Assembly: GCA_035554435.1 (NCBI GenBank)
Contig: DATMJC010000044.1
Coordinates: 30,624-94,623, forward strand
From: Burkholderiales bacterium
GTDB taxonomy: Bacteria; Pseudomonadota; Gammaproteobacteria; Burkholderiales; SG8-39
DNA length: 64,000 nucleotides
Direction: 5' to 3'
The translations under genes were made by a program, and so were the position numbers. The notes under the pieces were generated by a model. That model worked only from the letters and a program-made list of their open reading frames with translations, had not been told where the DNA came from and did not search any database. Of the stretch, positions 25,050 to 40,989 are shown piece by piece (the first letter of the stretch is position 1; each line of letters opens with the position of its first letter).

Positions 25050-25132
25050 TTGAAACCTCCAGGGTGGGCTACGTTCGCTAACGTGGGGACGGCCCGAGTA
25101 TTCCAGATCCTGGAAGAACAAGACGCGCAAAA

Positions 25133-25157
25133 AAAATCGGGGGCAGACCCCGATTTT
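25133..25157. repeat. Family-1 palindrome variant AAAATCGGGGGCAGACCCCGATTTT
   Basis: Read directly in the 139-nt gap between two minus-strand genes. Confidence 0.85.
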
Positions 25158-25188
25158 CTGATTCAGATGCTGGGAAAAAGCTGGGGTT

Positions 25189-25776: not shown

Positions 25777-26207
25777 TCCATGCTCCTCAGGACGAGGCGG
25801 AAGTCGGCCGCCTTGTTGGTCGGCGCGACCGTGTTCACCATCAGGTTGGAGTTGTCGTAGACCATGAGCGGCTTCCACGCTTCCTCTTCCCACGCGCGCA
25901 TCCCCTCGCGGTCGATCCAGCGGAACTTGTAGGAAACGCGCTTGACGGTCTTGCTGTCGTTGTTGAGGTTGGCGTCGATCCTCAGGAGATCGCCGCTGCG
26001 GCTGCAGCGCATTTCAGTGGGCAGGACAGTCGTGCGCGAGCCCTCCATCACCACCTTGGCCTTGACCAGGTCTTCCATCGAGGCGATCTTCTGCTCGCCG
26101 ATCGGGCAGCCGAACGCTTGCCCAGGAACTTCGAACCCCTTCTTGGTGGCGCAGCCTGCGCCCAGTGCCGTCGCGAGGACCGCGGCGGGGACCCATGCGT
26201 ATTTCAT
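25773..26207 (-). CDS. YcfL-like (DUF1425) lipoprotein
   Basis: Lipobox ALGAGCA. VSYKFRWIDREGM...DFRLVL parallels the E. coli YcfL pattern YRFYWYDARGL. ATGA overlap. Confidence 0.65.
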   Translation of the reverse strand: MKYAWVPAAVLATALGAGCATKKGFEVPGQAFGCPIGEQKIASMEDLVKAKVVMEGSRTTVLPTEMRCSRSGDLLRIDANLNNDSKTVKRVSYKFRWIDREGMRAWEEEAWKPLMVYDNSNLMVNTVAPTNKAADFRLVLRSME

Positions 26208-27607
26208 CTTGAGGCCTCCCCTGTTTGTGCTCCCGGGTGGTACCCGTAAAGCTGATTTCCCAGCAACCAAAAGTCTATCACCGCGTGGCGCCCCTTGACG
26301 TCCACGCGCGCGCTGCGCGGGCCTTGCGGTGTCTGAATCGTGACACTGTGCACACCGGCGGGCAGGCGCGCCCGCGCAATCGAGATGTCGGAGGGCAGCG
26401 TGCGCCAGGTGCGATCGTCGGCCCCTGACACCAGCACCGAGCCGAGCGTCACGATCATCGCCGCGAGACCGGCTGCATTGTTACCGCGGTCGGCGGACCT
26501 CTGAGTCTGCACCTGCGCTACGGCGCTCGCGGCAGCGCGCACCGAAGCGCGCAGCATGATCGAAGGCATGTCGTCCTTCAGCCGGCGCCGGGCCATCAGG
26601 TCGACGCTGGTGATGGGTGCGAGCGGCACGGAGCCGGCGCCGTCCACGGCGAGCGCGTTCGGCCGCGGCGCCCAGGCGCTCGGCGTGATCACCGGAAACG
26701 AGATCGGCACCAATACCCACCTGTAACCTGACAACACCGGCAGGTTGAACTGCTGCGAGTGAATCGCGGGCGCCGAACCAGAGGCGACGATGAAGAGCAC
26801 GTCCACCTTTCCGTCGTCAGGCGCATGCAAGCGTGCTTCCAGACCGGAGAGCGCCTCTTCCAGGAGCGGCACGCCGGGATGAAGCTCGTTCGCGAGGCGA
26901 TAGCCCGGGGCGGCGAGGCTCAGCTCGCCGAGCGCCTCGTAGATGAACCCCGCCAGATAGTGCGAGAGCGCGCTCTGATAGCTGTTCATGAGCGCGTTCA
27001 CCTCGGCGTTGTCGATGCTCTGCACCGGGTAGCCGTTCAGCTCCTTGAAGCTGGTGCGCGCGCCGCGCTTCTTCGCTTCTTCCTGCACCTCGGCGAGCTG
27101 CTTCACGCGCTCCTCCGCGATCAGCGCCTCCAGCTCGTGGGTCTGCTTGATCGCCACGCGGGCGTTCTCGTAGTCACCGAGCGCGAGATGATTGAGCGCA
27201 ATGTAGGTGAGGAGCATGACCTTTTCGTAGTCATAGCCGTCGTACGTGCGCAGCTTGTCGCTCAGGAGGTAGCTCGAGCTGCTGCGCACCAGGCTCGCGG
27301 CCTGGGCGAGCGGGTCGCGCACCTGGATGCGGGCGTTGGCGGCCATCCAGGTCTTCTGGCTATCCGGGTAGCGGTTGCCCAGGCGCTGCAGCATGCCGAG
27401 CTCGAGGTAGTAGAGCAGGTCGCGGTCGTTGACCGCATTGTTCGAGTCGAGCGTCTTGATCGCGCCGTCGACGTTGCCGGCCAGGGCGTAATTGAGCGTG
27501 CCGGTCAGCTCACGGTCATAGCTACGGAACGCGGCGCAGCCGGTCAGGCCGAGCGCGAGCACTAGGGCCGGCACGAGCGCGCGAAGCGACGGCGGCCAGG
27601 ACGGCAT
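26204..27607 (-). CDS. Large TPR-like lipoprotein (COG3014-like)
   Basis: 467 aa with lipobox GLTGCAAF. The N-terminal half is helical-repeat (YYLELGMLQRLGNRY, ALNHLALGDYENA). Confidence 0.6.
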   Translation of the reverse strand: MPSWPPSLRALVPALVLALGLTGCAAFRSYDRELTGTLNYALAGNVDGAIKTLDSNNAVNDRDLLYYLELGMLQRLGNRYPDSQKTWMAANARIQVRDPLAQAASLVRSSSSYLLSDKLRTYDGYDYEKVMLLTYIALNHLALGDYENARVAIKQTHELEALIAEERVKQLAEVQEEAKKRGARTSFKELNGYPVQSIDNAEVNALMNSYQSALSHYLAGFIYEALGELSLAAPGYRLANELHPGVPLLEEALSGLEARLHAPDDGKVDVLFIVASGSAPAIHSQQFNLPVLSGYRWVLVPISFPVITPSAWAPRPNALAVDGAGSVPLAPITSVDLMARRRLKDDMPSIMLRASVRAAASAVAQVQTQRSADRGNNAAGLAAMIVTLGSVLVSGADDRTWRTLPSDISIARARLPAGVHSVTIQTPQGPRSARVDVKGRHAVIDFWLLGNQLYGYHPGAQTGEASR

Positions 27608-30332: not shown

Positions 30333-31025
30333 ATGTTCTACCGGGATCACACTCTCCTGATCCACAAGGCCGTCGCCGCCGCCGGCGGCGAGGATAAGCT
30401 GCGCATGCTGCTGCGGGTATCGTGGCCGCAGCTCCAGGCGTGGCTCGATGCGCGCTCCGCGGTACCGACCGACGTGTTCCTCAAGCTCGTCGACCTGCTG
30501 GAGCAGGCGCCGGAGCCGGCGGAGCCGGCGCTGCATCCGTTCCTCGCGCCGGACTACGCCGCCACCAGCCGCGAACAGGTTTGCGAAGCCGCGCTCGACG
30601 CGGCCCTCTGCGTCACCGGAAGCGATCTCGGCAACGTGCAGCTCCTGGACGCGAGCGGCGTGCTGCGCATCTGCGCGCAACGCGGCTTCGAACAACGTTT
30701 CCTCGAGTTCTTCGCCGAAGTGAAAGGCGCCGAATCGGCCTGCGGCGTGGCGCTGATCCTCGGGCGGCAATACTCCGTGCCCGACGTCCAGGCGCATCCG
30801 GTGTTTCGCGGCACCGCGGCGGGCGACGTGATGCTCTCGGCCGGAGCGCACGCGGTAGAGTCGAGCCCGATCGTCAGCTCGGCCGGCGTGCCGCTCGGCA
30901 TGCTTTCGGTGCACCACCGCCAGCCCGGCACGCCCGACGAATGCGTGCTCGCGCTTCTCTACCGCATCGCGCGCCGCGCCGGCGCGCTGCTGGGAAAATC
31001 GGGGTCCGGCCCCGCTTTTCCCTAG
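30333..31025 (+). CDS. HTH-like N-terminal module fused to a GAF domain
   Basis: The GAF-like core is GNVQLLDASGVLRICAQRGF...ACGVAL...VESSPIVSSAGVPLGMLSVHH. The N-terminal AGGEDKLRMLLRVSWPQLQAWL resembles a Cro/YdaS-type HTH. Confidence 0.65.
   Translation: MFYRDHTLLIHKAVAAAGGEDKLRMLLRVSWPQLQAWLDARSAVPTDVFLKLVDLLEQAPEPAEPALHPFLAPDYAATSREQVCEAALDAALCVTGSDLGNVQLLDASGVLRICAQRGFEQRFLEFFAEVKGAESACGVALILGRQYSVPDVQAHPVFRGTAAGDVMLSAGAHAVESSPIVSSAGVPLGMLSVHHRQPGTPDECVLALLYRIARRAGALLGKSGSGPAFP
30995..31019. repeat. Family-1 palindrome variant AAAATCGGGGTCCGGCCCCGCTTTT overlapping the 3' ends of two convergent genes
   Basis: Read directly. It encodes the last residues (KSGSGPAFP) of the GAF protein and lies next to the stop (31022-31024, minus strand) of the tctC-like gene. 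Confidence 0.75.
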
Positions 31026-31987
31026 TGCGGCTTGATTCCGGTTTCCTGGGCGATCTTGCCGAAGATCGCCATCCAATCTTCGTAGCGCTTCGTGACGTCC
31101 TGCGGGCTGCTTGCCTGCGGCACCGATCCCGCCTTGGCGAAGCGCCCGCGCAGTTCCTCGTTGCCGAGGCTGCGGGCGATCGCGCGGCTGAGGATCTCGA
31201 CCACTTCCGGGCGTATTCCCGCAGGGCCCATGATGCTGCGCCAGGCCGGCAAGTCGTAGGCCGGCATCCCCGACTCGGCCATCGTCGGCACCTCGGGCAG
31301 CATTTCCGAGCGCACCCGCGAGGTCACCGCGAGCGCGCGCAGCTTGCCGCTGTTCGTGACGGCGCCGACCACCGGCGAGAAGAAGTAATCGACGCGTCCG
31401 CTGACGACGTCCACCAGCGCCTCTCCCGTCGTCTTGTACGGCACCTCGACCGCCTGGATCCTGTTGACGTGATTGAAGACCACCGCGGTCCAATAGGGCA
31501 TCTGGCCGGCGCCAAGCGTCGCGTAGGTCATCTTGCCGGGACGCTGCCGCGCGAGCGCGATGAACTCCTGGACGTTGCGCGCCGGGAGCGATGAATCGAT
31601 CACCAGCACGAACGGCGAGGTCTCGACCAGCGAGATCGGAGTGAAATCCTTCAGCAGGTCGTACGTGACATTGGCGTTCACGTAGCGCGCGCCCGCCATC
31701 GACCCGCCCGCGAGGAGCAGCGTGTAGCCGTCCGGGGGCGACCTGGCGACGAAGGTCTGGCCGATCATGCCGCCCGCGCCGGGGCGGTTCTCGACGACGA
31801 ACTGCTGCCCGAGGAGCCCGGAGAGCCCGGCCGCGACCTGGCGTGCGACGAAATCGTCGCCGCTCCCCGCGCCGGCGGCGACGATGACGCGCACCGGCTT
31901 GACCGGGTAATCGTCGGCGGCCGCGCCGGCGCCCGCGAATACCGCCAGCACTCCTGCCCAAAGAAAAGCGCGGCCTATCTGGCCCAT
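31022..31987 (-). CDS. Bug/TctC-family substrate-binding protein (orphan, last gene of the 38.2-31.0 kb array)
   Basis: 321 aa. YPVKPVRVIVAAGAGSGDDFVAR, ENRPGAGGMIG, PDGYTLLL and VPYKTTGEA. Confidence 0.88.
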   Translation of the reverse strand: MGQIGRAFLWAGVLAVFAGAGAAADDYPVKPVRVIVAAGAGSGDDFVARQVAAGLSGLLGQQFVVENRPGAGGMIGQTFVARSPPDGYTLLLAGGSMAGARYVNANVTYDLLKDFTPISLVETSPFVLVIDSSLPARNVQEFIALARQRPGKMTYATLGAGQMPYWTAVVFNHVNRIQAVEVPYKTTGEALVDVVSGRVDYFFSPVVGAVTNSGKLRALAVTSRVRSEMLPEVPTMAESGMPAYDLPAWRSIMGPAGIRPEVVEILSRAIARSLGNEELRGRFAKAGSVPQASSPQDVTKRYEDWMAIFGKIAQETGIKPH

Positions 31988-31991
31988 GAAA

Positions 31992-32471
31992 TCAATTCGG
32001 GTTCTTGGGCTTCCCGGACTCGTCGACCCGGATGGTGGCGCTCGGGCCGATGCCCATGATCTGCACGATTACTTCCTCGTCCTTCGCGCCGTCCCAGTGG
32101 ATCTGGTTCGGGTGGTGCACCACGAAGCTGCCCGCGGGCACCGGCGTGGTCTTGCTCTTGTCCTGCACCGGGCCCGAGCCCACCCACCAGGTGCCTTTGA
32201 GCACGGTGATGTAGCGCGTCTCGGGATGGAAGTGCGGCGGGCTGAACGTGCCCGGCGAGAAGCGGTTGCGCACGACGTACATCTGCCCCGGGACCTTCGG
32301 GTCGCCGGAGATCACCGCGTTTGCAGCGCCCGGCACGATCGGGCTGGGATTGAACTTCACCTCCTCCGAGCGCCAGATGTTCATGACCTCTTTCGGCGGG
32401 TCGGCGAGCACCGGGAAGGAAGCACTCATTGCCAGAAGCAAGAGCGAACAAAGGGTGTTTGCTGTCTTCAT
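31992..32471 (-). CDS. Exported cupin-domain protein
   Basis: Internal ATG (MKTANTLCSLLLLAMSASFPVLA) of track ORF 31992-34445. Cupin motifs PPHFHPETRYITVLKGTW and HHPNQIHW. Confidence 0.7.
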   Translation of the reverse strand: MKTANTLCSLLLLAMSASFPVLADPPKEVMNIWRSEEVKFNPSPIVPGAANAVISGDPKVPGQMYVVRNRFSPGTFSPPHFHPETRYITVLKGTWWVGSGPVQDKSKTTPVPAGSFVVHHPNQIHWDGAKDEEVIVQIMGIGPSATIRVDESGKPKNPN

Positions 32472-32494
32472 GACTCGTCCTCCTCCAGGGTGAG

Positions 32495-32518
32495 AAAAAC
32501 AGCGACCGTCCCTATTTT
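32495..32518. repeat. Degenerate family-2 palindrome (AAAAACAGCGAC-C-GTCCCTATTTT)
   Basis: Read directly. Lies between the two cupin genes and abuts the stop at 32519-32521 (TTTTCTAG). Confidence 0.7.
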
Positions 32519-33139
32519 CTAGGGCTCGCGTGAATCGATGAGGATGAACGCGACGCGGCACGGCTCCTTGCCGCGGTTCACCCACGCGTGATTGGTCGCC
32601 TGCTGCACCACCACGTCGCCCGCCTTGAGGTGCACCACGCTGTCGTCGAGCAGCATGTCGATCTCCCCCGACATGATGATCGCGTAGTCCAGGCTGCGCG
32701 TGCGATGCATCATCGGGTGGCTCGGCGGCCGGCCCTTCGCCGGCGCCTCGTCGCCGACGATGCGCATCATGTAGTTCATCTCGGTCGGGTGGCCGGGCGC
32801 CGACTCCGGCGCGAAGTCGACCACGCGGAACACCGTGCCCGACTTCGGCGGCACCAGCCCGATCTTGGTCTTGCCGCGGTCGTCGCTCCACGAGAAGTCG
32901 GGCAGGCTCTTGTCGGTGATCCAGACGTTCGCCGCGGCGTTGGGCGGCCGCGGCGCGGTAAGCCGCGTACGCTCGTCGATCATCACCACCGCCTTGCCGG
33001 ACTCGTCGAGCTTGGTGACGACGCGCCGTACCTCTGGAGCCTGTTTCTGCTGCCCGAGGACATAGCCGCCAAAGCCGGTTGCCGCGCCGACCAGAAAAAT
33101 GGTGACAGTCACCATTTTCTTCACAAGCTTTGTCTTCAT
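32519..33139 (-). CDS. Cupin-domain protein with N-terminal signal anchor
   Basis: 206 aa. MHRTRSLDYAIIMSGEIDMLLDDSVVHLKAGDVVVQQATNHAWVNRG is a cupin core. The N-terminus is MKTKLVKKMVTVTIFLVGAATGFGG. Confidence 0.7.
   Translation of the reverse strand: MKTKLVKKMVTVTIFLVGAATGFGGYVLGQQKQAPEVRRVVTKLDESGKAVVMIDERTRLTAPRPPNAAANVWITDKSLPDFSWSDDRGKTKIGLVPPKSGTVFRVVDFAPESAPGHPTEMNYMMRIVGDEAPAKGRPPSHPMMHRTRSLDYAIIMSGEIDMLLDDSVVHLKAGDVVVQQATNHAWVNRGKEPCRVAFILIDSREP
33096..33118. repeat. Perfect 23-nt palindrome AAAATGGTGAC-A-GTCACCATTTT inside the cupin signal-anchor coding region
   Basis: Read directly. On the minus strand it encodes K-M-V-T-V-T-I-F. It has the same architecture as family 2. Confidence 0.85.
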
Positions 33140-33169
33140 GACGATCCCCTCCCCGGGCCGCGTTCGATT

Positions 33170-34798
33170 CTAGTCCAGCCTCTCGTCGAGCGGCGCCAAT
33201 CGGATGATCGAGGCGCCGTGATTGCTGCCGACCCAGAAGGTCACCGGCTTCGTCCGGTTGTCGACGAACACGCGCCGCACGTTGGTCTGGCGGGGCAGCA
33301 GGTACTCGAGCGACTTCCCGCTCGCCGGGTCGAAGCGCAGGATGCGGTCGCTCGACATCGAGCCGCTCCAGAGCTCGCCGTTCCGGTCGACGAACACGTC
33401 GTACGGATAGGTGTGCGGCGTCGGCGCGTCCCACTCGCGGAAGCTCTCCTTCGCCGGATCGAACATCGCCACCTTGTTCGCGGCGAACTCGGCGAACCAG
33501 ACCCGGCCCTGCGCGTCCATCATCGTGCGCCGCGGGCGCGAGCGCGGCGTAGGTGTGGGATAGATCATGGCCTGGCCCGTCTTTGCGTCGATGCGGCCGA
33601 TCGCCTCGCCGCCGAAGTCCATGAAGAAGAGATTGTTGGCCGCATCCGCCACCAGCCCGTACGGGGAGTGGCTGCCGCCCATCATCTTGAACGGCTCGAA
33701 CAGCTCGTACTTGCCGCTCTTGATGTCGAGGCGCATCAGCGCCTGCTTCGCTACCTCGTTGGTCCACACCTTGCCGTCGACGTGCGACTGGCGCGGCATG
33801 ACCATCGATTGCTGAGAGGCGTCGGTGTTCATCTCCGGCGGCAGGCGAAAGACCTGAAAGGCTTTCTTCCGCACGTCGAACTTGACCACGCCCGTCTGGA
33901 ACATCGCCGCCAGCCAGAAGTTGCCGTCGCGGTCGGTGGAGAGCGCGAGCGCCCCGGTGGGCGCCCCGGGCTTGACCGCCGGCCAGGCGAACTCCTCGTG
34001 CGCGCCGGTTTTCGGGTCGAGGCGGCCAAGGTAGTTGTCGACGAAGTTGGAATACCAGGCCATGCCCTCTGCGTCGATCTGGACGTCGTGGGGCGCGATC
34101 GTCTTGCGCGGCATGTCGTATTCGGTGATCACCACGCGCGTTGCGCGGCCCGACGGGCGCGGCAGGGTCTTCAGGGAATATGCCCAGGGGCCGCTGCTCT
34201 GGTTGACGGTGGCGAGATAGGCCGCCAGCCGCCGCAGGTTCTGCTCTTCGTACTTGCGCTCGACCTTGCGCACCTGCACCTTCTGCAGGGTGCTGTTGTT
34301 GGCGTAGGTGGTCATGCGCTTCAGCACTTCGAACATCTCGCCCGCGCCGTGCTTCGTCCGCAGGATGCGCTCGAAGGTATGGCAGCTCATGCATTCGATC
34401 AGCGGCCGCTTCTGCTCCGTCGTGCCCGGCATGCTGATGAACCACTCGGTGTTGGTGAGCTGGGCGGCGAGGTCCTTCGCCTTGCGCAGGGTCAGCTGGA
34501 TCGTGCCGTCGTCCCCGCTCGCGCTGCGCTCGAGCTCGTAGCCTACGGCGCGGGTCGAGTATTCGTACTTGCCCGGCGGCAGGCTGGCCTCCGGGAAGCG
34601 GAACTCGCCTTTCGCGTCGCTCACCACGGTGACGGTGATCGGCGAGCCGGCACGGCGCGCGCTGACCAGGACGCCTTCCATCGCGCCTTCCTCGCGGGAC
34701 GACACGTGGCCGCGCAGCTCGGCCGCAGCGCCGGTGCCGCAGAAAAGCAGAAGCAGTGTGAAACCGAAAAGCGCCTTCAGCCGCGCTCCATCCTGCAT
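33170..34798 (-). CDS. Exported CarboxypepD_reg-like beta-sandwich + CxxCH + beta-propeller (Vgb/NHL-like) protein (P2)
   Basis: Internal ATG (MQDGARLKALFGFTLLLLFCGTGAAAE). Beta-sandwich GVLVSARRAGSPITVTVVSDAKGEFRFPEASLPPGKYEY. Haem motif IECMSCHTFE. Repeated strand-turn motifs run to the C-terminus. Confidence 0.75.
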   Translation of the reverse strand: MQDGARLKALFGFTLLLLFCGTGAAAELRGHVSSREEGAMEGVLVSARRAGSPITVTVVSDAKGEFRFPEASLPPGKYEYSTRAVGYELERSASGDDGTIQLTLRKAKDLAAQLTNTEWFISMPGTTEQKRPLIECMSCHTFERILRTKHGAGEMFEVLKRMTTYANNSTLQKVQVRKVERKYEEQNLRRLAAYLATVNQSSGPWAYSLKTLPRPSGRATRVVITEYDMPRKTIAPHDVQIDAEGMAWYSNFVDNYLGRLDPKTGAHEEFAWPAVKPGAPTGALALSTDRDGNFWLAAMFQTGVVKFDVRKKAFQVFRLPPEMNTDASQQSMVMPRQSHVDGKVWTNEVAKQALMRLDIKSGKYELFEPFKMMGGSHSPYGLVADAANNLFFMDFGGEAIGRIDAKTGQAMIYPTPTPRSRPRRTMMDAQGRVWFAEFAANKVAMFDPAKESFREWDAPTPHTYPYDVFVDRNGELWSGSMSSDRILRFDPASGKSLEYLLPRQTNVRRVFVDNRTKPVTFWVGSNHGASIIRLAPLDERLD

Positions 34799-35157
34799 TC
34801 GGTTTCGACCGGCTTGGGCGGATTGGCTTTGGCGATCGGGCGGCGGATCACGCGCGTCTGCTTGTAGCCTTCCTTCGCACAAGCGATGACGACCTCCGCC
34901 GGATTGATGTTCGTGCTGAAGGTCGGCAGGCGGTAGAGACCGGTCGCGGTGGTCTGGACGATGAAGGTGTTGCCGCTCTTCATCGTCGCGGTGACCTTCG
35001 CGCTGGCGATGGGCGCGCCACGCGCATCCTTCACGTAACCGAAGAAGACCAGCCCTTCGTCCTGGTGCTCGTCCGGGCCGCCCATTTCGCCGCCGGCCAT
35101 TGCCTCCCCCGAAGCAATCGCGATCGCAGCCACGGCGAGTCGCGCGAGCCTGCTCAC
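34777..35157 (-). CDS. Small exported CarboxypepD_reg-like protein
   Basis: GTG 35157 overlaps the upstream stop (GTGA). Leader VSRLARLAVAAIAIASGEAMA. GYVKDARGAPIASAKVTATMKSGNTFIVQTTATGLYRL is beta-sandwich-like. Confidence 0.5.
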   Translation of the reverse strand: MSRLARLAVAAIAIASGEAMAGGEMGGPDEHQDEGLVFFGYVKDARGAPIASAKVTATMKSGNTFIVQTTATGLYRLPTFSTNINPAEVVIACAKEGYKQTRVIRRPIAKANPPKPVETECRMERG

Positions 35158-35528
35158 CGCAGAAAGTAAGCTCGCAACAGCCAGCCGAACGCCAGCATCG
35201 CGCAAAGCGGCACCACCCAGGTCAGGGTCGGTCGCAGAAAGCGCGTCGCACGGTCGGGCAGCAGCGCGGCAAGGACGCCCGCGATGCCGGCGATGATGCC
35301 CGCGGTGACGAGCCAGCCGAACCAGTACATCGCCGGCCCTTCGCGCGGCTTCTCGACGCCGAAGCCGAACTCGGCGATCTGCGGGTGGTAGGTGACGAGC
35401 GCCCAGTTCTGCTCCACCGCGAAGAAGTAGGCGACCGCGTAGACGACGGCGAAGACGATACCGAAGGACGCAGCGCGCACGCTGGTGAGATTCGCGCCCG
35501 CGGTGGCGAGATTCGCGCCCGCGCTCAA
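35154..35528 (-). CDS. Small polytopic membrane protein (TM-B)
   Basis: TTG 35528 overlaps the upstream stop (TTGA); an alternative GTG is at 35480. Three to four hydrophobic helices (FGIVFAVVYAVAYFFAV, WFGWLVTAGIIAGIAGVLAALL, WVVPLCAMLAFGWLL). Confidence 0.5.
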   Translation of the reverse strand: MSAGANLATAGANLTSVRAASFGIVFAVVYAVAYFFAVEQNWALVTYHPQIAEFGFGVEKPREGPAMYWFGWLVTAGIIAGIAGVLAALLPDRATRFLRPTLTWVVPLCAMLAFGWLLRAYFLR

Positions 35529-35980
35529 GACCCGAAGCCCCGGATGTTGTTCAGGACGTGCCCGGTGAGGAAGTTCCACCAGACGATGAAGGCGAGGAGC
35601 GCGGTGACGACGGCTCGCGTGCGTCCATCGGGCGGCCGCCGCCACAGGTACCAATACGCCGGCAGCATGCCCATGCCGATCGCGGCGAAGTGCTCCTTCA
35701 GCTCGAACGCGCCGAACGCCGACCACGCCCTGAGGTCCTCCACGAGCGGGCGGACAAAGACGCGGTATTCGGTGTAGATGATGCCGCCGAGGGTGAAGGT
35801 GGCGAGGTAAAGCAGCACGATCGCGTTGGCGTAGCCGGGCGCCGCAACCGAGCGAAAGCGGCCGGTGAACGATCCCGCGGGCCGGGTCACAGGCCACAAC
35901 ACGCTCGCGGCCTGGTGCGTGATGGCACCGAGCAACGCGACCGCGAGCAGACCGTGGACGATCAGCAGGACGGTAAACAA
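35525..35980 (-). CDS. Four-helix membrane protein with conserved-looking His residues (TM-A)
   Basis: 151 aa. TTG start 5 nt after GAGGGGG. Reads LLIVHGLLAVALLGAITHQAA...KEHFAAIGMGMLPAYWYLW...WWNFLTGHV. Confidence 0.6.
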   Translation of the reverse strand: MFTVLLIVHGLLAVALLGAITHQAASVLWPVTRPAGSFTGRFRSVAAPGYANAIVLLYLATFTLGGIIYTEYRVFVRPLVEDLRAWSAFGAFELKEHFAAIGMGMLPAYWYLWRRPPDGRTRAVVTALLAFIVWWNFLTGHVLNNIRGFGS

Positions 35981-36011
35981 GCGGCCCCCTCAATCCGCGA
36001 GCGCAAGGCGG

Positions 36012-38159
36012 TCAATCCGCCAGCGGGTTCGGCCTGATCTGGAACTTGTAGACCTTCGGGCTGTTCGCCGTGCCGCCTTCGTTGTGGAACACGGTGCGCG
36101 TGCCCGAGGTCGCCCAGAGGCCTTTGCCCTTCCAGCCCGCCTTGTCGTTGTCGATCCGGCCGTCGACCAGCTTGGTGAAGAAACCCAGCGGGTACGGCAC
36201 GCGGAGATCCACGATCTTGCCGTCGACCACCGCCATCAGCGACTCGCTGCCGTTCGCCATCGCGATCGGCACGTTGTTGCCGAGGCCGAGGGTGTTGTAG
36301 CGATCGACCCACAGGTAATACGCGTGGTTCGCGCTGCCCGACGTGTCGACGCCCTTGAACTGCGGCCCGGGCATCTTGTAGACCGTCCAGCCTTCGGGAC
36401 AGAGCTTGCCTTCGGCGGCCTGCGGGCCGTTGAGCGGTCCCTTGCACTTGCGGCGGTCGAAGCTGGCGATGTGCCCGCTCGCGTACGGCAGCCACGCTAC
36501 GCCGTCCGTGGTCATGTCGATGCCGCGCGGGCTCCAGACGCCGTCGGGCGGTAGATAGACCTCGGAGAGCGCGGTCTCGGCGGGATTCGGTCCCGGGACG
36601 GTGCGGATGAGATAGCCGGGCTGCGGCATGCGTGCAAAGCCGACGCCCATCGACTGGCCCCAGATCGAGTCGTCGGCCGGGCTCGGCATGATGCCGTAGA
36701 AGCCGGCGGTGAGGCGCTTGTCCTTCGTCGGATCGACTGGGTCGTTCGGCCCGACGAACTCGTCGCGCTTGCCGTTGCCGTTGGTGTCAATGACGATCGG
36801 CATCCAGCCCTGCGACTTCGCCGAGTCGCCGGTGGCGAGGAACTGCTTGGTCTTCAGGTAGCCGACGACGCCGCTCGCCGGGCCGCCCTGGCTGAACCAG
36901 AGCGTGTCGTTGTCCTTCGCGAAGAAGAGGTGGTGCGTCGGGAAGCACAGGTCCGCGTGCATCCACTTCTGCGTCTTCGGATCGTACACCGACGCCTGCC
37001 GCGGCGATGCGTCGAGCGGCATCACCTTGGCCGACGGATGGTCCGAGCCCTTCTTGCAGAAGTCGGGGTTGGCCGCCGGGCGGAAGCGCGCGGTGACCCA
37101 CAAGCGGCCCTCTGCGTCCATCTGCGCGTTATGGATGCTGCTCGAGCCGTCCCAGATCGGATCGGCGCCCCAGTAGGCCGAGGGCTGCATCGGCAGCTGC
37201 TTGGAGTTCGGCGTCTCGCTGTTCGACACCGGGTGCTTGATCGAGTAGGCGCGGTTCTTCACCGGGTCGAGCACCGGGATGTTGTCCGTGCTCTCCTCCG
37301 GCGCGCCGTAGATCGGGCCATTCGGGTTGAGGCGCGGATTGAGCTGGTAGGTGGAGACGCCGTCATGCAGGTAGTGCTTCGGCGTGGAGTAGTCCCACAT
37401 CGTGATGACCATGTTGCGCTCGACGCCCTCGGGGCGCCGCGGCTTGTCGAAAGGCAGCTCGCCCTTCGCGATGCGGTCGGTCCAGTCGGCGTAGTTCTTC
37501 AGCGCGGCGTCGACGCCCATGTAGCCGAGACCAAGCGCCATGTTGCTCATGGCCTGGCCCGACTGCGTGCGCCGGGCCCAGGCGGCGACCGAGCTCGTCT
37601 GGCCTTCCATGAACTGCTTTGGCACGACGCGGATGCCGTGCGAGCCGAGCGCGTGGCACGACTGGCAAGCGTTCTTCACCGTGTCGACCCACTGCTCCTG
37701 GGACTTGATATTCGGCGAGATGCCGTTGCCCTTTTCGCCGGTGCCCGGAAACTGGTCCTTCCCCGGGATGTTGATCATCGAATACCAATACATGCCCGGA
37801 TAGAGCTCGGCGGCATCCTTCGCGCTCTTGGCCGCAGCGGCCTTCAGCTCGACGGTTTTCCCCGGACTCGCCTTCACCTTAGCGGAATCGGCGAGGCCAT
37901 AGCCCCTGGCCCAGACGGTGTAGTTCGCCTTGGGCAGCTCGGGAATGAGGTAACGGCCCTTGTCGTCGGTGACGACCACCTTGGCGTACTTGGTCGGCAG
38001 ATCGGTCGTCTCGGCGATCACCCAGACGCCGGCCTCGGGCCCTTTCGGACCGCTGACCACGCCGCCGATGTCGGACGCGCCGACCTTCTGCGCGAGCGCT
38101 GTTCCGGAAAAAAGAACCAGGGAAGCAAAGGCAGTTGCTGCAGGGATTGCAGAATGCAT
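36012..38159 (-). CDS. Exported CarboxypepD_reg-like beta-sandwich + CxxCH + large beta-rich domain protein (P1)
   Basis: 715 aa. GGAGGAG lies 9 nt before the ATG. Signal peptide ...FSGTALAQ. Beta-sandwich VWVIAETTDLPTKYAKVVVTDDKGRYLIPELPKANYTVWARGYG. Haem motif NACQSCHALG. Confidence 0.8.
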   Translation of the reverse strand: MHSAIPAATAFASLVLFSGTALAQKVGASDIGGVVSGPKGPEAGVWVIAETTDLPTKYAKVVVTDDKGRYLIPELPKANYTVWARGYGLADSAKVKASPGKTVELKAAAAKSAKDAAELYPGMYWYSMINIPGKDQFPGTGEKGNGISPNIKSQEQWVDTVKNACQSCHALGSHGIRVVPKQFMEGQTSSVAAWARRTQSGQAMSNMALGLGYMGVDAALKNYADWTDRIAKGELPFDKPRRPEGVERNMVITMWDYSTPKHYLHDGVSTYQLNPRLNPNGPIYGAPEESTDNIPVLDPVKNRAYSIKHPVSNSETPNSKQLPMQPSAYWGADPIWDGSSSIHNAQMDAEGRLWVTARFRPAANPDFCKKGSDHPSAKVMPLDASPRQASVYDPKTQKWMHADLCFPTHHLFFAKDNDTLWFSQGGPASGVVGYLKTKQFLATGDSAKSQGWMPIVIDTNGNGKRDEFVGPNDPVDPTKDKRLTAGFYGIMPSPADDSIWGQSMGVGFARMPQPGYLIRTVPGPNPAETALSEVYLPPDGVWSPRGIDMTTDGVAWLPYASGHIASFDRRKCKGPLNGPQAAEGKLCPEGWTVYKMPGPQFKGVDTSGSANHAYYLWVDRYNTLGLGNNVPIAMANGSESLMAVVDGKIVDLRVPYPLGFFTKLVDGRIDNDKAGWKGKGLWATSGTRTVFHNEGGTANSPKVYKFQIRPNPLAD

Positions 38160-38252
38160 ATGGGGATCTCCTCCACGAGACTCGCCAATCTACCCTCGTC
38201 GCCCGCGCTGCGCCAGCCTCGCCTGCGGTTTTCTTGCTACGATGCCCGCCCC

Positions 38253-39485
38253 ATGCGCCTGAGCGAGGAAGAGCGCGACATCCTCGCCGGAAAGCTCGGC
38301 CCGGTGCCCCGGCTCGCACTCGAGCACCAGGTCAAGGTCGGCGAGTTCTTCGGCGCGGAGGACTTCGTCGCCGTCTCCCAGGCCCACGTCATGGCCGACG
38401 GCGAAAGCCTGGGCGAGGCCGGCGTGCGCTGGCTGGAGGGCCTCGCCGCGGCGAAGGAAGGCCGCCGCCGCGTGCGCATCCCGACGATCACCGACCCGCG
38501 CGGCACCGACTTCGCCAGGGCGGCGTTCCTCGGCCACACCCCGGCGATGCTCGGGCTCGAAGAGCGCGTCATCGCCGCGCTGGTGAAGCTCGGCGTGATG
38601 ATGACCGACACCTGCATCAACTACCAGACGGTCCAGCCCGCGACGCTGAACGAGCACGTCGCGTTCGGCGACACCGGCGTGGTGATCTATTCCAACTCGG
38701 CGTGCGGCGCGCGCTCCAACTTCGAAGGCGGGCCCTCGGCGCTCGCCGCGGGGCTGACCGGGCGCACGCCGCGCTACGGCTTCCACCTCGAAGGGCAGCG
38801 CCGCGCAACGCTCGCGGTGCGCGTCGATTTCGCCCCGAAGAGCCTGAACGAATGGGGCGCGCTCGGCGGCGCGATCGGCCGCCTCGCCGGCAACTACTGG
38901 GCGGTGCCGCTGGTCGAAGGCTTCGGCGCTACGCCCGGCTCCGACGCGCTCAAGCACTTCGGCGCGGCGATGGCGAGCTTCGGCTCGGTGGCGCTCTTCC
39001 ACATGCCGGAGGTGACGCCGGAGGCGCGGCGCCGCGCCGACGTGGCGCCCGACCCCTTGCCGCAGGTGGGCGTGACACGTGCCGACATCGAGGCGCTGCA
39101 GAAGTCCTACCGCAAGGACGATGCGGTCGACGTCGTCGTGTTCTCGGCGCCGCAGCTCTCGCTCCTCGAGCTCGCCGAGCTCGCCGCGCAGTGCGACGGC
39201 CGGCGCTTCGCGATCCCGCTCCTCGCGGTCACCAGCCCGCAGGTGAAGCCCGATGCCGACCGCATGGGCTACACCGGGAAGATCGAGGCCGCAGGCGGCA
39301 CGGTGCTCTCGGGCATGTGCTTCTACCAGTCATACGCGCGCGAGATCGCGGAAGCGAAGGGCTGGAAGCGCCTCGCCACCAACAGCGCCAAGCTCGTGAA
39401 CATCCTCGGCGGCTACGGCTACGTGCCGATGCTCGCTTCGATGGAGCAATGCGTCGAAGCCGCGCGCACTGGAAAGCTGGGATGA
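38253..39485 (+). CDS. Aconitase X catalytic (large) subunit, DUF521
   Basis: Internal ATG (MRLSEEERDILAGKLGP...). Contains AHVMADGESLGEAG, MTDTCINYQ and SNSACGARSNFEGG. Confidence 0.85.
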   Translation: MRLSEEERDILAGKLGPVPRLALEHQVKVGEFFGAEDFVAVSQAHVMADGESLGEAGVRWLEGLAAAKEGRRRVRIPTITDPRGTDFARAAFLGHTPAMLGLEERVIAALVKLGVMMTDTCINYQTVQPATLNEHVAFGDTGVVIYSNSACGARSNFEGGPSALAAGLTGRTPRYGFHLEGQRRATLAVRVDFAPKSLNEWGALGGAIGRLAGNYWAVPLVEGFGATPGSDALKHFGAAMASFGSVALFHMPEVTPEARRRADVAPDPLPQVGVTRADIEALQKSYRKDDAVDVVVFSAPQLSLLELAELAAQCDGRRFAIPLLAVTSPQVKPDADRMGYTGKIEAAGGTVLSGMCFYQSYAREIAEAKGWKRLATNSAKLVNILGGYGYVPMLASMEQCVEAARTGKLG

Positions 39486-39889
39486 TGGAGCTTCGTGCGC
39501 GCCACGCCATCGGGTCGGCCGTGACAGGAGAGGCGCTCGTCGCGCGCGACGGCTTCTCCGCGCGCTACGACCTCGACCGCGGGCGCGGTGTCTTCTCCCG
39601 CCCGACGCACAAGCTCGCCGGCCAGTCCTACGTCGGCCGGATCCTCGTGCTCGACACCGCCAAGGGCGGCGTCGCGAGCGCCTGGATGCTGCACGAGATG
39701 GCTTCGCGCCGCGTCGTGCCGCTCGCGCTGGTCTTCAACAGCGTCAACCCGATCCTGGTGCAGGGCGCCGCGTTCGGCGATATCACGATGCTCGCGGGCT
39801 TCGACGGCGATATCACCGCGCTCGTGCCCGACGGCGCGCGCCTGGCACTCGATCCTTCAAAACGCATTCTGGTCATCGTCGAAAAATGA
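39482..39889 (+). CDS. Aconitase X swivel (small) subunit, DUF126
   Basis: ATGA overlap. GEALVARDGFSARYDLD...GRILVLDTAKGGVASAWMLHEM. Confidence 0.8.
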   Translation: MMELRARHAIGSAVTGEALVARDGFSARYDLDRGRGVFSRPTHKLAGQSYVGRILVLDTAKGGVASAWMLHEMASRRVVPLALVFNSVNPILVQGAAFGDITMLAGFDGDITALVPDGARLALDPSKRILVIVEK

Positions 39890-40989
39890 GCCTCAAGCGC
39901 TTCAAAGGCAATGCCGGCACCACGCTCGTCCTGGAGCACGTCTCGGAGATCCTCAAGGGAAATCCGCTCGGCGATCCGCACGTGCGCAAGCTCGCGGTCT
40001 GGCTGCCCCCCGGATACGACCATTCGGGCAAGCGGCGCTTTCCGGTGCTCTACGATCTGGTCGGCTTCACCGGCTCGGGGCTCTCGCACGTCGGCTGGAA
40101 GCCGTTCGGCGACAACGTCCCCGAGCGCGCCGCACGCCTCATCCGCGACGGGAAGATGGGCGCGGCGATCATCGTGTTTCCTGACTGCTTCACCGCGTTC
40201 GGCGGCAACCAGTACGTCAACTCCCCGGCGATCGGCGACTACGCCGACTACCTCACGCGCGAGATCATCCCGTTCGTCGACCGCGAGTTCCGCACCCTCG
40301 CCTCACGCGAGCACCGCGGCTGCTTCGGCAAGTCATCGGGCGGCTACGGCGCGATCATCCACGCCATGAAGTACGCGAGGTACTGGGGCGCGATCGCGGA
40401 TCACTCGGGCGACGCCTACTTCGACTTCGTCTACTGGCACGACTGGCCGAACACGCTGAACGAGCTCGCCAAGTACCGCACGCCGAAGCGCAGACCGGGA
40501 CGCTATGAGGCGCTGCGCGAATCACGCCGAAGAGGTTTGCCTGAGGGCAGGGACGATGGCCGAATCCGGCGTTTCCTGAATGCGGTGTGGAAAAGAGAGA
40601 AGCTCTCGGGCGCCGAAACCCACTGCCTCATGAACCTCTGCATGGCCGCGACCTACGACCCCGACCCGCGCGCGCCGAACGGCTTTCGCGTGCCGTTCAA
40701 CCTCGAGTCGGGCGAGCCGATCGAGGAGCGCTGGCGCGAGTGGCGCCGGCACGATCCGATCCACCTTGTCGCCCGGTACAAGAGCAATTTGAGAACGCTG
40801 CGCGGGATCTACATCGACTGCGGCTGGCGCGACCAGTACCACATCCATTACGGGGCTCGCATCCTGTCCAAGCAGCTTTCCGTCGCAAAAATAGAGCACC
40901 GCTACGAAGAGTTCGACGACAACCATTCCGACATCGACTACCGGATGGACGTCAGCCTGCCGTTCCTATACCGAGCGCTGAAGCCCTAG
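39886..40989 (+). CDS. Putative esterase (esterase D/enterochelin-esterase-like fold)
   Basis: ATGA overlap. RFPVLYDLVGFTGSG and nucleophile motif GCFGKSSGGYGA. Confidence 0.75.
   Translation: MSLKRFKGNAGTTLVLEHVSEILKGNPLGDPHVRKLAVWLPPGYDHSGKRRFPVLYDLVGFTGSGLSHVGWKPFGDNVPERAARLIRDGKMGAAIIVFPDCFTAFGGNQYVNSPAIGDYADYLTREIIPFVDREFRTLASREHRGCFGKSSGGYGAIIHAMKYARYWGAIADHSGDAYFDFVYWHDWPNTLNELAKYRTPKRRPGRYEALRESRRRGLPEGRDDGRIRRFLNAVWKREKLSGAETHCLMNLCMAATYDPDPRAPNGFRVPFNLESGEPIEERWREWRRHDPIHLVARYKSNLRTLRGIYIDCGWRDQYHIHYGARILSKQLSVAKIEHRYEEFDDNHSDIDYRMDVSLPFLYRALKP

What the first reader, a model, noticed from the sequence alone, without database searches (positions are those of the whole stretch)
31022..38159. 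Eight-gene same-strand periplasmic module built around two beta-sandwich + CxxCH + propeller proteins
Eight minus-strand ORFs (38159 down to 31022) follow one another with spacings from a 22-nt overlap to a 47-nt gap.

The genes, in order:
- P1 (715 aa).
- TM-A (151 aa, TTG start after GAGGGGG).
- TM-B (TTGA overlap).
- A mini beta-sandwich protein (GTGA overlap).
- P2 (542 aa).
- Two exported cupins.
- An orphan TctC-type binding protein with no TctAB partner.

P1 and P2 share one plan. Each has a Sec leader and a carboxypeptidase-regulatory-like sandwich of about 80 aa (DDKGRYLIPELPKANYTVWARGYG versus DAKGEFRFPEASLPPGKYEYSTRAVGY). Each then has a single c-type haem motif at the same relative place (NACQSCHALG versus IECMSCHTFE), followed by a long beta-rich, propeller-like region.

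I know of no characterised pathway with this composition. Haem c, metal-binding cupins, a solute receptor and two His-bearing small membrane proteins together suggest an extracytoplasmic redox or catabolic machine. The function is entirely open.
Basis: partly seen in the sequence, partly recalled or inferred. Interest (0 to 1): 0.7.

Follow-up and report, generated by a model that had tools for sequence, protein, structure and literature searches.

The report
Two haem-propeller proteins with membrane trio
A soil bacterium carries a widely conserved but unstudied gene cluster: two related exported haem-plus-propeller proteins next to three small membrane and periplasmic proteins.

Summary
The eight minus-strand genes exist exactly as described, with the stated spacings, start codons and motifs.

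**P1 and P2.** They are distant paralogues (hhalign 96.9 %). Each has a Sec leader, a transthyretin-like sandwich, one c-type haem domain with an invariant CxxCH and a downstream Met, and a 7-bladed Vgb-like propeller. P2 is not a streptogramin lyase: Vgb's catalytic His270, Glu268 and His228 are Tyr, Tyr and Arg.

**What is conserved.**
- TM-A, TM-B and the mini sandwich form an obligate trio. TM-B follows TM-A in 64/64 loci and mini in 43/44.
- P2 orthologues always lie next to the trio.
- P1 lies next to it in about 15 % of its own loci and otherwise stands alone.
- The two cupins occur only in the nearest Burkholderiales relatives.
- TctC is probably background; the window holds three more copies.
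- Other lineages put an Amidohydro_3, a small cytochrome c or an NMT1-type binding protein beside the trio.

**Expression.** P1 is among the most covered genes of this window in rhizosphere metatranscriptomes. RNA contigs span the P1/TM-A, TM-A/TM-B and TM-B/mini junctions.

**Known matches.** TM-A and TM-B match no Pfam or NCBIfam family; TM-A and P1 have no PDB relative; no paper on the cluster was found.

**Function (inferred).** P1 and P2 are cytochrome-c-coupled periplasmic enzymes. The trio is either a metal/cofactor relay or an electron relay.

The parts
36012..38159 (-). P1, 715 aa. Sec leader, beta-sandwich (about residues 31-107), helical mono-haem c domain (about 113-249), then a 7-bladed Vgb-like propeller with insertions (about 250-708).
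   Evidence: ORF. Pfam CarboxypepD_reg weak. AlphaFold model pLDDT 84, pTM 0.86. Foldseek best match Vgb (2z2o, 2z2p), target-normalised TM-score 0.78-0.82. More than 8000 homologues, all 'hypothetical'. Best-covered gene of the cluster in RNA contigs.
37653..37667 (-). P1 haem-c attachment motif C165-Q-S-C168-H169. The likely distal ligand is Met207.
   Evidence: Invariant in 41 homologues and in paralogues down to 52 % identity. Met207 is kept in all of these; Met204 is not.
35525..35980 (-). TM-A, 151 aa. Four-helix membrane protein, N-terminus outside. His9, Glu93, Glu96, His97, His141, Asn144 and Asn145 lie on the periplasmic side; His22 and Gln23 lie towards the cytoplasm.
   Evidence: TTG start after GAGGGGG. 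Conservation. AlphaFold 4-helix bundle, pLDDT 86. Positive-inside count. No Pfam or NCBIfam hit. No PDB relative. Only 738 representative clusters and no fusions.
35154..35528 (-). TM-B, 124 aa. Three predicted helices, with conserved periplasmic motifs 'ALFTYHP' and 'GPAMYWYGW'. Its start overlaps the TM-A stop (TTGA).
   Evidence: Follows TM-A in 64 of 64 metagenome loci with enough downstream sequence. No family hit.
34777..35157 (-). Mini sandwich, 126 aa from the GTG. Signal peptide (..AMA|GGEM), an acidic His-bearing N-terminal tail (GGE..D.DH.DEG), a CarboxypepD_reg-like sandwich and two conserved Cys.
   Evidence: Follows TM-B in 43 of 44 loci.
33170..34798 (-). P2, 542 aa. Sec leader, CarboxypepD_reg sandwich, mono-haem c domain, then a 7-bladed Vgb_lyase-family propeller whose blade-start residues are rich in Arg and Tyr.
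   Evidence: Pfam. PDB 2qc5 5e-36. NCBIfam VgbA/VgbB 71-83 bits against a cut-off of 600. About 7500 homologues. Every orthologue context examined has the trio adjacent.
34379..34393 (-). P2 haem-c attachment motif C136-M-S-C139-H140. The likely distal ligand is Met162.
   Evidence: Invariant in 38 homologues.
32519..33139 (-). cup1, 206 aa. Signal-anchored or exported Cupin_2 protein. A lineage-specific companion of P1.
   Evidence: Pfam 2.5e-8, above the cut-off. Found only in L005, L007, L008, L010, L090, L091 and L094.
31992..32471 (-). cup2, 159 aa. Exported small cupin with HxH..E..H ligand motifs. Lineage-specific.
   Evidence: Weak Cupin_1, Cupin_2 and Cupin_7 hits, and NCBIfam mandelonitrile-lyase cupin 3e-8 below its cut-off. 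Same distribution as cup1.
31022..31987 (-). TctC ('Bug') solute-binding protein, 321 aa. Last gene of the string and probably a passenger.
   Evidence: Pfam 5e-59. Absent after cup2 in L005, L008, L010 and L090. Three more paralogues in the window. An RNA contig from a related strain ends cup2 with a hairpin instead.
31000..31014 (.). G+C-rich hairpin between the convergent TctC gene and the GAF-domain gene. Likely the end of the transcription unit.
38160..38246 (.). About 87 nt of intergenic DNA between P1 and the divergently transcribed AcnX gene. Presumed promoter region, with a GGAGGAG ribosome-binding site before the P1 ATG.
   Evidence: Sequence. RNA contig depth drops to about 0 beyond 38350. 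No sigma-70 consensus match.

Best explanation
**What it is (shown).** This is a conserved five-gene extracytoplasmic module, followed in this lineage by two exported cupins and a probably unrelated TctC gene.
- P1 and P2 are distant paralogues. Each is a Sec-exported protein made of a transthyretin-like sandwich, one covalently bound c-haem domain (CxxCH plus a conserved Met) and a 7-bladed propeller of the virginiamycin-B-lyase fold.
- TM-A (4 helices), TM-B (3 helices) and the mini sandwich are an obligate, translationally coupled trio.

**How it most likely works (inferred).**
- P1 and P2 are periplasmic enzymes. Catalysis takes place on the top face of the propeller.
- In P1 the first inner strands of blades 1-3 start with conserved His265, His343 and His409/410, which looks like a metal or acid-base centre.
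- In P2 the equivalent positions carry His237, His377, Arg423/424, Tyr464/466 and Arg508/509, which looks like an anion-binding pocket.
- The His/Met haem carries electrons between that site and soluble periplasmic cytochromes. P1 can therefore work alone, as it does in most genomes.
- The trio forms a membrane complex with a binding site facing the periplasm. The site is built from TM-A His9, Glu93-x-x-Glu96-His97 and His141, and from the TM-B YHP and GPAMYWYGW motifs.
- The acidic, His-bearing tail of the mini sandwich docks at that site.
- My preferred reading is that the trio is a metal or cofactor supply relay for the neighbouring periplasmic enzymes. The logic is that of CopC/CopD beside copper enzymes.
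- An electron-relay role is almost as likely.

Substrate and product are unknown.
For: **Architecture and paralogy:**

**Haem motif and Met invariant:**

**Trio always together:** 64/64 and 43/44, with 4-nt start/stop overlaps.

**Trio next to P1- or P2-type genes:**
- 11 of 14 loci informative on both flanks.
- Every P2 orthologue context examined.
- The gene order is permuted between lineages (P1-trio-P2, trio-P2-P1, P1-P2-trio). That argues for selection on linkage rather than inherited order.

**Periplasm-facing His/Glu cluster in TM-A:**

**Acidic His tail of mini:**. The tail His and the TM-B loop His are lost together in the Polynucleobacter-type variant.

**Alternative neighbours of the trio** are metal-dependent periplasmic hydrolases (Amidohydro_3, MBL fold).

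**Small class-I cytochrome c genes** lie inside some clusters (L049, L062, L073, L143). This fits electron exit through soluble cytochromes.

**In situ expression and co-transcription** of P1, TM-A, TM-B and mini.
Against: - No cofactor, metal, substrate or activity has been shown.
- The positions of the His and Arg residues in 3-D are inferred from the secondary structure of the model and from blade periodicity. I could not inspect coordinates.
- P1 occurs without the trio in about 85 % of its loci, so the trio cannot be an obligatory maturation factor for P1.
- The P2 propeller centre is not His-rich.
- The most frequent extra neighbour of the trio is an NMT1-type solute-binding protein (28 of 80 loci). 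That is not a metalloenzyme.
- TM-A His97 and His141 are replaced in some distant family members.
- Nothing in the trio is homologous to any known metal transporter, chaperone or cytochrome b.
- RNA contig depth over P2 is low.
Confidence: 0.35

Rival explanations
1. **Electron-relay reading.** TM-A and TM-B form a small membrane redox subunit, either a b-haem or a quinone-reactive four-helix bundle. It connects the haem c of P2/P1, directly or through a small soluble cytochrome c, to the quinone pool. The module would then be a respiratory-chain-linked periplasmic dehydrogenase or reductase. Mini would be a docking adaptor.
For: - Both large proteins carry an electron-transfer-type haem, with CxxCH and a conserved Met.
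- TM-A has two His 13 residues apart in helix 1, plus His in helices 3 and 4. All four are invariant among close homologues.
- A small class-I cytochrome c gene sits between P1 and TM-A in L049, L062 and L073, and after P2 in L143.
- The weak fold neighbours of TM-A are respiratory four-helix bundles: COX3, hydrogenase cytochrome b and STEAP.
Against: - Those Foldseek matches are not significant (best E 0.2).
- No cytochrome-b family hit appears even at E 10.
- By the positive-inside rule, three of the four His lie at one membrane face. Two bis-His sites therefore cannot be formed within TM-A.
- His97 and His141 are not universal.
- Several trio loci have no CxxCH gene within 2-5 kb.
- A cofactor-less sandwich protein is unusual in such complexes.
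Confidence: 0.25
2. **Processing-plus-uptake reading.** P1, P2 or the alternative hydrolases modify a periplasmic compound or a metal chelate. A solute-binding protein captures the product: NMT1-type in many lineages, perhaps TctC here. The 7-helix TM-A/TM-B pair imports it. The logic resembles EfeUOB or FtrABCD iron uptake, where a periplasmic haem or copper protein works with a small periplasmic binding protein and a 7-helix permease carrying ExxE motifs.
For: - An NMT1/THI5-type binding protein lies directly after mini in 28 of 80 trio loci.
- TctC ends the string in the window and in L007.
- TM-A has a conserved E93-x-x-E96-H97 motif at the periplasmic end of helix 3.
- Together the pair has 7 helices.
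- A TonB-dependent receptor and an outer-membrane barrel gene flank the trio in L121.
Against: - There is no homology to FTR1/EfeU, TctA/TctB, TRAP or ABC permeases.
- Seven helices split over 151 and 124 residues would be an unprecedented permease.
- TctC genes are background in this genome, with four in 64 kb. TctC is also missing from the closest relative, L005.
- The window cluster has no NMT1 gene.
Confidence: 0.12
3. **Antibiotic-lyase reading.** P2, and by extension P1, is a streptogramin or depsipeptide lyase of the Vgb type, that is, an antibiotic-inactivating enzyme. The neighbouring genes would be unrelated. Automatic pipelines annotate it this way.
For: - Pfam Vgb_lyase 3.5e-37.
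- PDB Vgb and streptogramin B lactonase hits, 5e-36 to 5e-20.
- JGI names homologues 'streptogramin lyase' or 'virginiamycin B lyase'.
Against: - In the HMMER alignment to 2z2n, catalytic His270 aligns with Tyr466, Glu268 with Tyr464 and His228 with Arg423. All three are invariant in the P2 family. PDB entry 2z2p is titled 'catalytically inactive H270A'.
- NCBIfam VgbA/VgbB scores are 71-83 bits against a cut-off of 600.
- P2 is exported and carries an extra sandwich and a haem domain.
- It is always linked to the trio.
Confidence: 0.03
4. **No functional unit.** P1 is an independent enzyme, and the rest is a neighbourhood kept by descent in a few soil lineages.
For: - P1 is solo in about 67 of 80 GTDB loci, with variable neighbours.
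- RNA depth falls sharply after the trio.
Against: - The same five families recur in Alphaproteobacteria, Burkholderiales and Gammaproteobacteria MAGs in at least three different gene orders.
- The genes have overlapping starts and stops.
- RNA contigs bridge three junctions.
Confidence: 0.1

Closest known systems
Virginiamycin B (streptogramin B) lyase Vgb, Pfam PF24684, PDB 2z2n/2z2o/2z2p/2qc5
   Same: Seven-bladed propeller of the same fold. P2 matches the family model at 3.5e-37. The P1 model superposes on Vgb with target-normalised TM-score about 0.8.
   Different: - Vgb is a cytoplasmic single-domain protein of about 300 aa that depends on Mg2+. P1 and P2 are exported.
- P1 and P2 carry an N-terminal sandwich and a c-haem domain.
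- P2 replaces the catalytic His270, Glu268 and His228 with Tyr, Tyr and Arg.
- They sit in a conserved cluster with membrane proteins.
Cytochrome-c-fused propeller oxidoreductases: cytochrome cd1 nitrite reductase NirS, haem-c-containing clade II N2O reductase (cNosZ), quinohaemoprotein alcohol dehydrogenases
   Same: One polypeptide combines a class-I-like c-haem electron-transfer domain with a beta-propeller whose central top face holds the catalytic cofactor. All are periplasmic. Accessory membrane and periplasmic maturation or electron-transfer genes lie nearby. (Comparison from my own knowledge.)
   Different: - No sequence relation: there are no Cytochrom_D1, PQQ or NosZ Pfam hits.
- The propeller has 7 blades of the Vgb type.
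- There is an additional N-terminal sandwich.
- The propeller cofactor, if there is one, is unknown.
CopC/CopD periplasmic copper chaperone plus membrane protein, often encoded beside copper enzymes
   Same: A small periplasmic beta-sandwich with an N-terminal metal-binding-like tail, paired with a His-bearing membrane partner and encoded next to periplasmic enzymes. This resemblance is one of working logic only and comes from my own knowledge.
   Different: - No homology: there are no CopC or CopD Pfam hits.
- The membrane part is split into 4-helix and 3-helix proteins.
- The sandwich is CarboxypepD_reg-like, not CopC-like.
- No metal is known.
Tripartite tricarboxylate transporter TctABC
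   Same: The last gene is a clear TctC-family binding protein. TM-A resembles TctB in size and helix count.
   Different: - There is no TctA.
- TM-A gives no TctB hit even at E 10.
- TctC genes are abundant orphan 'Bug' genes in this genome.
- TctC is absent from the closest relative's cluster.

Membership tests
Streptogramin B lyase (Vgb) | Match to the Vgb_lyase propeller family model | tested here: met
   P2: PF24684 at 3.5e-37, 128 bits against a cut-off of 50. P1: by fold only, Foldseek 2z2p target-normalised TM-score 0.82.
Streptogramin B lyase (Vgb) | Catalytic and Mg-binding residues His270, Glu268 and His228 (S. aureus numbering) | tested here: not met
   The HMMER alignment to 2z2n_A puts Tyr466, Tyr464 and Arg423 at these positions. 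All three are invariant in 38 P2 homologues. His270 is named catalytic in the PDB title of 2z2p. The roles of Glu268 and His228 are from my own knowledge.
Streptogramin B lyase (Vgb) | NCBIfam VgbA/VgbB score above the curated cut-off | tested here: not met
   83 and 71 bits against a cut-off of 600.
c-type cytochrome (mono-haem, His/Met) | Conserved CxxCH motif in an exported protein | tested here: met
   P1 C165, C168 and H169 and P2 C136, C139 and H140 are invariant. Both proteins have Sec-type leaders.
c-type cytochrome (mono-haem, His/Met) | Conserved distal Met in a helical domain after the motif | tested here: inconclusive
   P1 Met207 and P2 Met162 are invariant, and the P1 model is helical over residues 113-249. 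Ligation itself cannot be seen, and no Pfam cytochrome c model matches.
c-type cytochrome (mono-haem, His/Met) | Covalently bound haem in the mature protein | not testable with these tools
   Needs haem staining or spectroscopy of the expressed protein.
Quinohaemoprotein / PQQ propeller dehydrogenases | Match to PQQ-type propeller repeats or the GSDH family | tested here: not met
   No PQQ, PQQ_2 or GSDH hit for P1 or P2. sGDH appears only as a generic propeller neighbour (rank 19).
Tripartite tricarboxylate transporter (TctABC) | TctC binding protein together with TctA and TctB membrane subunits | tested here: not met
   TctC is present at 5e-59. There is no TctA-sized membrane ORF in the cluster. 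TM-A and TM-B give no TctB hit at E up to 10.
Cupin superfamily | Cupin family model above the cut-off | tested here: met
   cup1: Cupin_2 33.9 bits against a cut-off of 27.2. cup2: below the cut-off for Cupin_1, Cupin_2 and Cupin_7, but the HxH..E..H motifs are visible in the sequence.
CarboxypepD_reg (transthyretin-like sandwich) | PF13620 above the cut-off (32.3 bits) | tested here: inconclusive
   P2 scores 48.4 bits and meets it. P1 at 27.3 and mini at 30.0 fall just below. The P1 model shows a beta-sandwich at residues 31-107. Mini shows no pairwise similarity to the P1 or P2 N-terminal domains.
Membrane di-haem cytochrome b (FdnI/HyaC type) | Four-helix bundle with two bis-His pairs at opposite membrane faces, and a family model match | tested here: not met
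   TM-A is a four-helix bundle with four His. Three of them lie at the periplasmic face. There is no Pfam hit and Foldseek is not significant.

The most novel reading that the evidence does not exclude
P1 and P2 found a previously unrecognised class of periplasmic haem-c/propeller metalloenzymes. In this class a Vgb-type propeller has been turned from a lyase into a redox catalyst. TM-A, TM-B and mini would be a new kind of dedicated membrane service complex, supplying either metal/cofactor or electrons. The whole would be a widespread soil and rhizosphere pathway for a substrate not yet connected with any known periplasmic oxidoreductase.
Probability: 0.25. Interest if true: 0.8.

Novelty: new variant of a known kind. 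Interest (0 to 1): 0.6.

Why it matters
All the families involved are large yet unnamed or misnamed.
- P1 has more than 8000 cluster-level homologues and P2 about 7500.
- TM-A has about 3800.
- Pipelines call P2 'streptogramin lyase', which could be miscounted as an antibiotic-resistance gene in soil resistome surveys.

The organism is common in soil and rhizosphere metagenomes. P1 is among the best-covered genes of this 64-kb window in rhizosphere metatranscriptomes. The protein is therefore made in nature and probably matters for life near roots.

A cytochrome-c-fused Vgb-type propeller would be a new solution to periplasmic redox catalysis. The invariant trio is a compact, experimentally tractable unknown.

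Cultured carriers exist:
- Polynucleobacter kasalickyi VK13 has P1, a small cytochrome c, the trio and an amidohydrolase.
- Bradyrhizobium sp. ARR65 and STM 3562, Methylobacterium longum and Noviherbaspirillum pedocola have P1 alone.

Tried and rejected
- **Family searches.** Pfam and NCBIfam gave nothing for TM-A or TM-B, even with Pfam at E 10. This also rejects the idea that TM-A is a TctB.
- **PDB by sequence.** P1 hits only an SdrD-like sandwich at E about 0.1. The TM-A profile finds nothing.
- **Foldseek of the TM-A model.** Only generic helical bundles, best E 0.2.
- **Exhaustive profile search with TM-A** against 1.84 billion representatives. It found 738 hits, all about 150 aa. The few longer ones are mis-called N-terminal extensions, not fusions, so there is no link to a known superfamily.
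- **Mini versus the P1 and P2 N-terminal domains by BLASTP.** No significant similarity.
- **Promoter scan.** No sigma-70-like site. The count of terminator-like sites is not above the shuffled expectation.
- **Literature.** Four full-text searches found no paper on this architecture or cluster.
- **Two leads considered and dropped.** The 2026 preprint on six-bladed PQQ/lanthanide propellers concerns GSDH-type enzymes, not this family. FoxY of the foxEYZ iron-oxidation operon is an eight-bladed PQQ-like barrel.
- **Solo-P1 loci of cultured strains.** I looked for a recurrent partner such as a small cytochrome or the trio and found none within ±4 kb.
- **Neighbour clustering around P1.** It gave only lineage-specific synteny: MR/MLE enolase, SDR, FMN_dh, AcnX.

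Full report
**1. Observation**

The window has about 68 % G+C, so spurious ORFs abound. The eight minus-strand genes still stand out. I read each junction.
- P1 (36012-38159) ends 31 nt before the TM-A TTG at 35980, which follows GAGGGGG.
- The TM-A stop and the TM-B start share TTGA (TM-B 35154-35528).
- The TM-B stop and the mini start share GTGA (mini 34777-35157, 126 aa).
- Mini overlaps the P2 ATG at 34798 by 22 nt.
- The remaining gaps are 30, 47 and 4 nt. A hairpin follows the TctC stop.
- P1 starts 87 nt from a divergently transcribed split aconitase-X pair.

The finding is accurate as a description.

**2. The two large proteins**

Family and structure searches:
- Pfam sees CarboxypepD_reg plus Vgb_lyase in P2, and only a sub-threshold CarboxypepD_reg in P1.
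- P2 matches solved Vgb lyases at 5e-36 to 5e-20. P1 matches nothing in the PDB by sequence.
- An AlphaFold model of P1, built on 41 homologues, has pLDDT 84 and pTM 0.86.
- The model shows a sandwich (residues 31-107), a helical domain around the CxxCH (113-249) and a propeller (250-708).
- Its best PDB matches are Vgb structures, with target-normalised TM-score 0.78-0.82.

P1 and P2 are related:
- BLASTP aligns them from the sandwich to the CxxCH at E 1e-5.
- Profile-profile comparison of the two families gives 96.9 % probability over 358 columns.

The haem motif:
- The CxxCH is invariant in both families. So is one downstream Met, Met207 in P1 and Met162 in P2.
- The motif and Met207 persist in P1 paralogues down to 52 % identity.
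- That pattern suggests an electron-transfer His/Met haem.

P2 is not a Vgb lyase:
- In the HMMER alignment to 2z2n, catalytic His270 aligns with Tyr466, Glu268 with Tyr464 and His228 with Arg423. All three are invariant in the P2 family.
- The NCBIfam Vgb models score 71-83 bits against a cut-off of 600.

Inferred active-site positions:
- Blade periodicity, read against the model's strands, places P1 His265, His343 and His409/410 at the start of the innermost strands of blades 1-3.
- It places P2 His237, His377, Arg423/424, Tyr464/466 and Arg508/509 at the equivalent positions.
- In Vgb these are the positions that form the active site.
- This step is inference. I could not inspect coordinates.

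**3. The small proteins**

TM-A:
- It is a confident four-helix bundle (pLDDT 86).
- Its K/R-rich loops 28-47 and 114-124 put the N-terminus outside.
- His9, Glu93, Glu96, His97, His141, Asn144 and Asn145 then face the periplasm. His22 and Gln23 lie near the cytoplasm.
- The four His are invariant among close homologues.
- Among 56 diverse representatives they are kept in 51, 48, 43 and 36 of 57 aligned sequences.

TM-B has three predicted helices and conserved periplasmic motifs ALFTYHP and GPAMYWYGW.

Mini has a signal peptide, a mature N-terminus of the form GGE..D.DH.DEG, a sandwich and two conserved Cys.

Searches for relatives:
- TM-A and TM-B match no Pfam or NCBIfam family.
- TM-A has no PDB relative by sequence or fold.
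- An exhaustive profile search found only 738 representative clusters of TM-A, with no fusions.

**4. What travels together**

Starting from P1, 80 loci from GTDB species representatives were examined (366 species matched).
- Only 13 loci have TM-A, TM-B and mini adjacent, and about 9 of those also have P2.
- In the rest P1 is alone, with lineage-specific neighbours.

Starting from P2, every orthologue context has the trio and P1 beside it, in different orders.

Starting from TM-A, 80 metagenome loci were examined.
- TM-B follows in 64 of 64 loci and mini in 43 of 44 loci with enough sequence.
- 11 of 14 loci informative on both sides carry P1- and/or P2-type genes.

Observed gene orders include P1-trio-P2 (the window, L001), trio-P2-P1 (L085, L087, L107) and P1-P2-trio (L123, L129, L138).

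Other variants of the cluster:
- In Polynucleobacter kasalickyi and relatives the cluster is P1, small cytochrome c, trio, then a periplasmic Amidohydro_3.
- In 28 of 80 trio loci an NMT1/THI5-type binding protein follows mini.
- A few trio loci show only hydrolases and no CxxCH gene nearby.

The cupins and TctC:
- The cupins occur only in the closest Burkholderiales relatives.
- In L007, L008 and L010 they follow P1 directly, without the trio or P2.
- TctC is missing from the 90 %-identical relative L005.
- The window has three more TctC paralogues, so its presence here carries little weight.

**5. Expression**

The sequence is common in soil and rhizosphere metagenomes. In four rhizosphere metatranscriptomes the assembled RNA contigs give these depths.

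| Region | Depth |
|---|---|
| P1 | 5-29 |
| TM-A / TM-B | 4-8 |
| P2 | 0-2 |
| Cupins | 2-11 |
| Flanking AcnX and GAF genes | about 0 |

- Contigs bridge the P1/TM-A, TM-A/TM-B and TM-B/mini junctions.
- Over a further 40 kb of the window, only an LpoB/DUF1425 lipoprotein cluster is covered as well.
- These are unstranded contigs, so depth is only a rough guide and DNA carry-over cannot be excluded.

**6. Mechanism**

Shown:
- composition and paralogy of P1 and P2;
- conserved haem motifs;
- an obligate trio;
- linkage across lineages;
- expression in situ.

Inferred:
- P1 and P2 are periplasmic enzymes whose propeller top face is the catalytic site.
- Their haem exchanges electrons with soluble cytochromes. 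This fits the small cytochrome c genes found in some clusters and the ability of P1 to stand alone.

For the trio I weigh three roles.
- **Metal or cofactor supply relay (preferred, about 0.3).** Support comes from the periplasm-facing His/Glu site, the acidic His tail of mini, the joint loss of the mini and TM-B His in one variant, and the metal-dependent alternative partner enzymes.
- **Electron relay to the quinone pool (about 0.25).** Support comes from the haem partners, the His spacing in helix 1 and the small cytochromes.
- **Binding-protein-dependent uptake (about 0.12).** Support comes from the NMT1 association and the ExxEH motif.

None of these is demonstrated. The main counter-evidence to each is listed in the report sections.

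**7. Comparison and novelty**

- The propeller belongs to the Vgb fold family, but membership of the Vgb lyases fails on catalytic residues, score thresholds, location and architecture.
- The overall design (c-haem domain plus propeller, periplasmic, accessory genes nearby) works like cd1 nitrite reductase, haem-c N2O reductase or the quinohaemoproteins, without homology to them.
- The membership test for the TctABC transporter fails.
- Four literature searches found no description.
- I rate it a new variant of a known kind, namely cytochrome-c-fused propeller enzymes with accessory proteins. The accessory trio has no known counterpart.
- Interest is 0.6. The families are large, expressed in nature, mis-annotated and experimentally tractable, but their function is still open.

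Noticed in passing
window 35479-35520 (minus strand, 5' end of TM-B): A 21-nt tandem duplication (GCGGGCGCGAATCTC.CCA..) adds seven residues (AGANLAT/AGANLTS) to the cytoplasmic N-terminal tail of TM-B. The 97 %-identical metagenome relative L088 has one copy. L005 has none.
   Followed up: partly
window 201-1100, 18421-19320, 21379-22218 (all minus strand): Three further TctC-family ('Bug') binding-protein genes lie in the same 64 kb, at 23-37 % identity to the one in the cluster. This is typical Burkholderiales expansion of orphan TctC genes.
   Followed up: partly
window 38247-39485, 39485-39889, 39886-40989 (plus strand): A split aconitase-X pair (AcnX large subunit plus swivel subunit) followed by a putative esterase, transcribed divergently from P1. 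The AcnX-P1 synteny is kept in L005, L007, L008 and L010. RNA contig depth here is about 0 while P1 is well covered.
   Followed up: partly
window 24450-27607 (minus strand): A lipoprotein cluster made of an LpoB-family protein, DUF1425, a 467-aa TPR-like lipoprotein and an unannotated 226-aa exported protein. It has the highest metatranscriptome contig depth of the 50 kb examined (up to 41).
   Followed up: partly
L073 9950-15424 (Polynucleobacter kasalickyi VK13); also L049, L062, L084: A variant cluster in a cultured strain: P1, a small class-I cytochrome c (absent in L084), TM-A, TM-B, mini, then a 557-aa exported Amidohydro_3 in place of P2. In L049, L062 and L073 the mini tail and the TM-B loop both lack the His seen elsewhere.
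   Followed up: partly
L102 3528-10075; L104, L120, L121, L145, L151 and others: A second variant: an NMT1/THI5-type periplasmic binding protein directly follows mini (28 of 80 trio loci). L102 also has two tandem P1 paralogues upstream of the trio. L110 and L120 have exported metallo-beta-lactamase-fold proteins nearby.
   Followed up: partly
window 31996 and 32520-33097 (RNA contigs of run X26): One RNA contig from a closely related strain continues past cup2 into a different sequence with a hairpin instead of TctC. Another weakly supported contig (depth 2, 21 letters on one side) joins 32520 to 33097, which would remove cup1. Both hint at strain-level variation in the tail of the cluster.
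   Followed up: no
window 30333-31025 (plus strand): A GAF-domain protein gene converges on TctC. The two genes share the hairpin at 31000-31014.
   Followed up: no
L008 4413-5924 and L010 3407-4732: A third, more distant P2-like paralogue (24 % identity) lies immediately upstream of P1 in relatives that lack the trio. L143 has a 639-aa CxxCH paralogue after a small cytochrome c. The superfamily is larger than P1 and P2.
   Followed up: no
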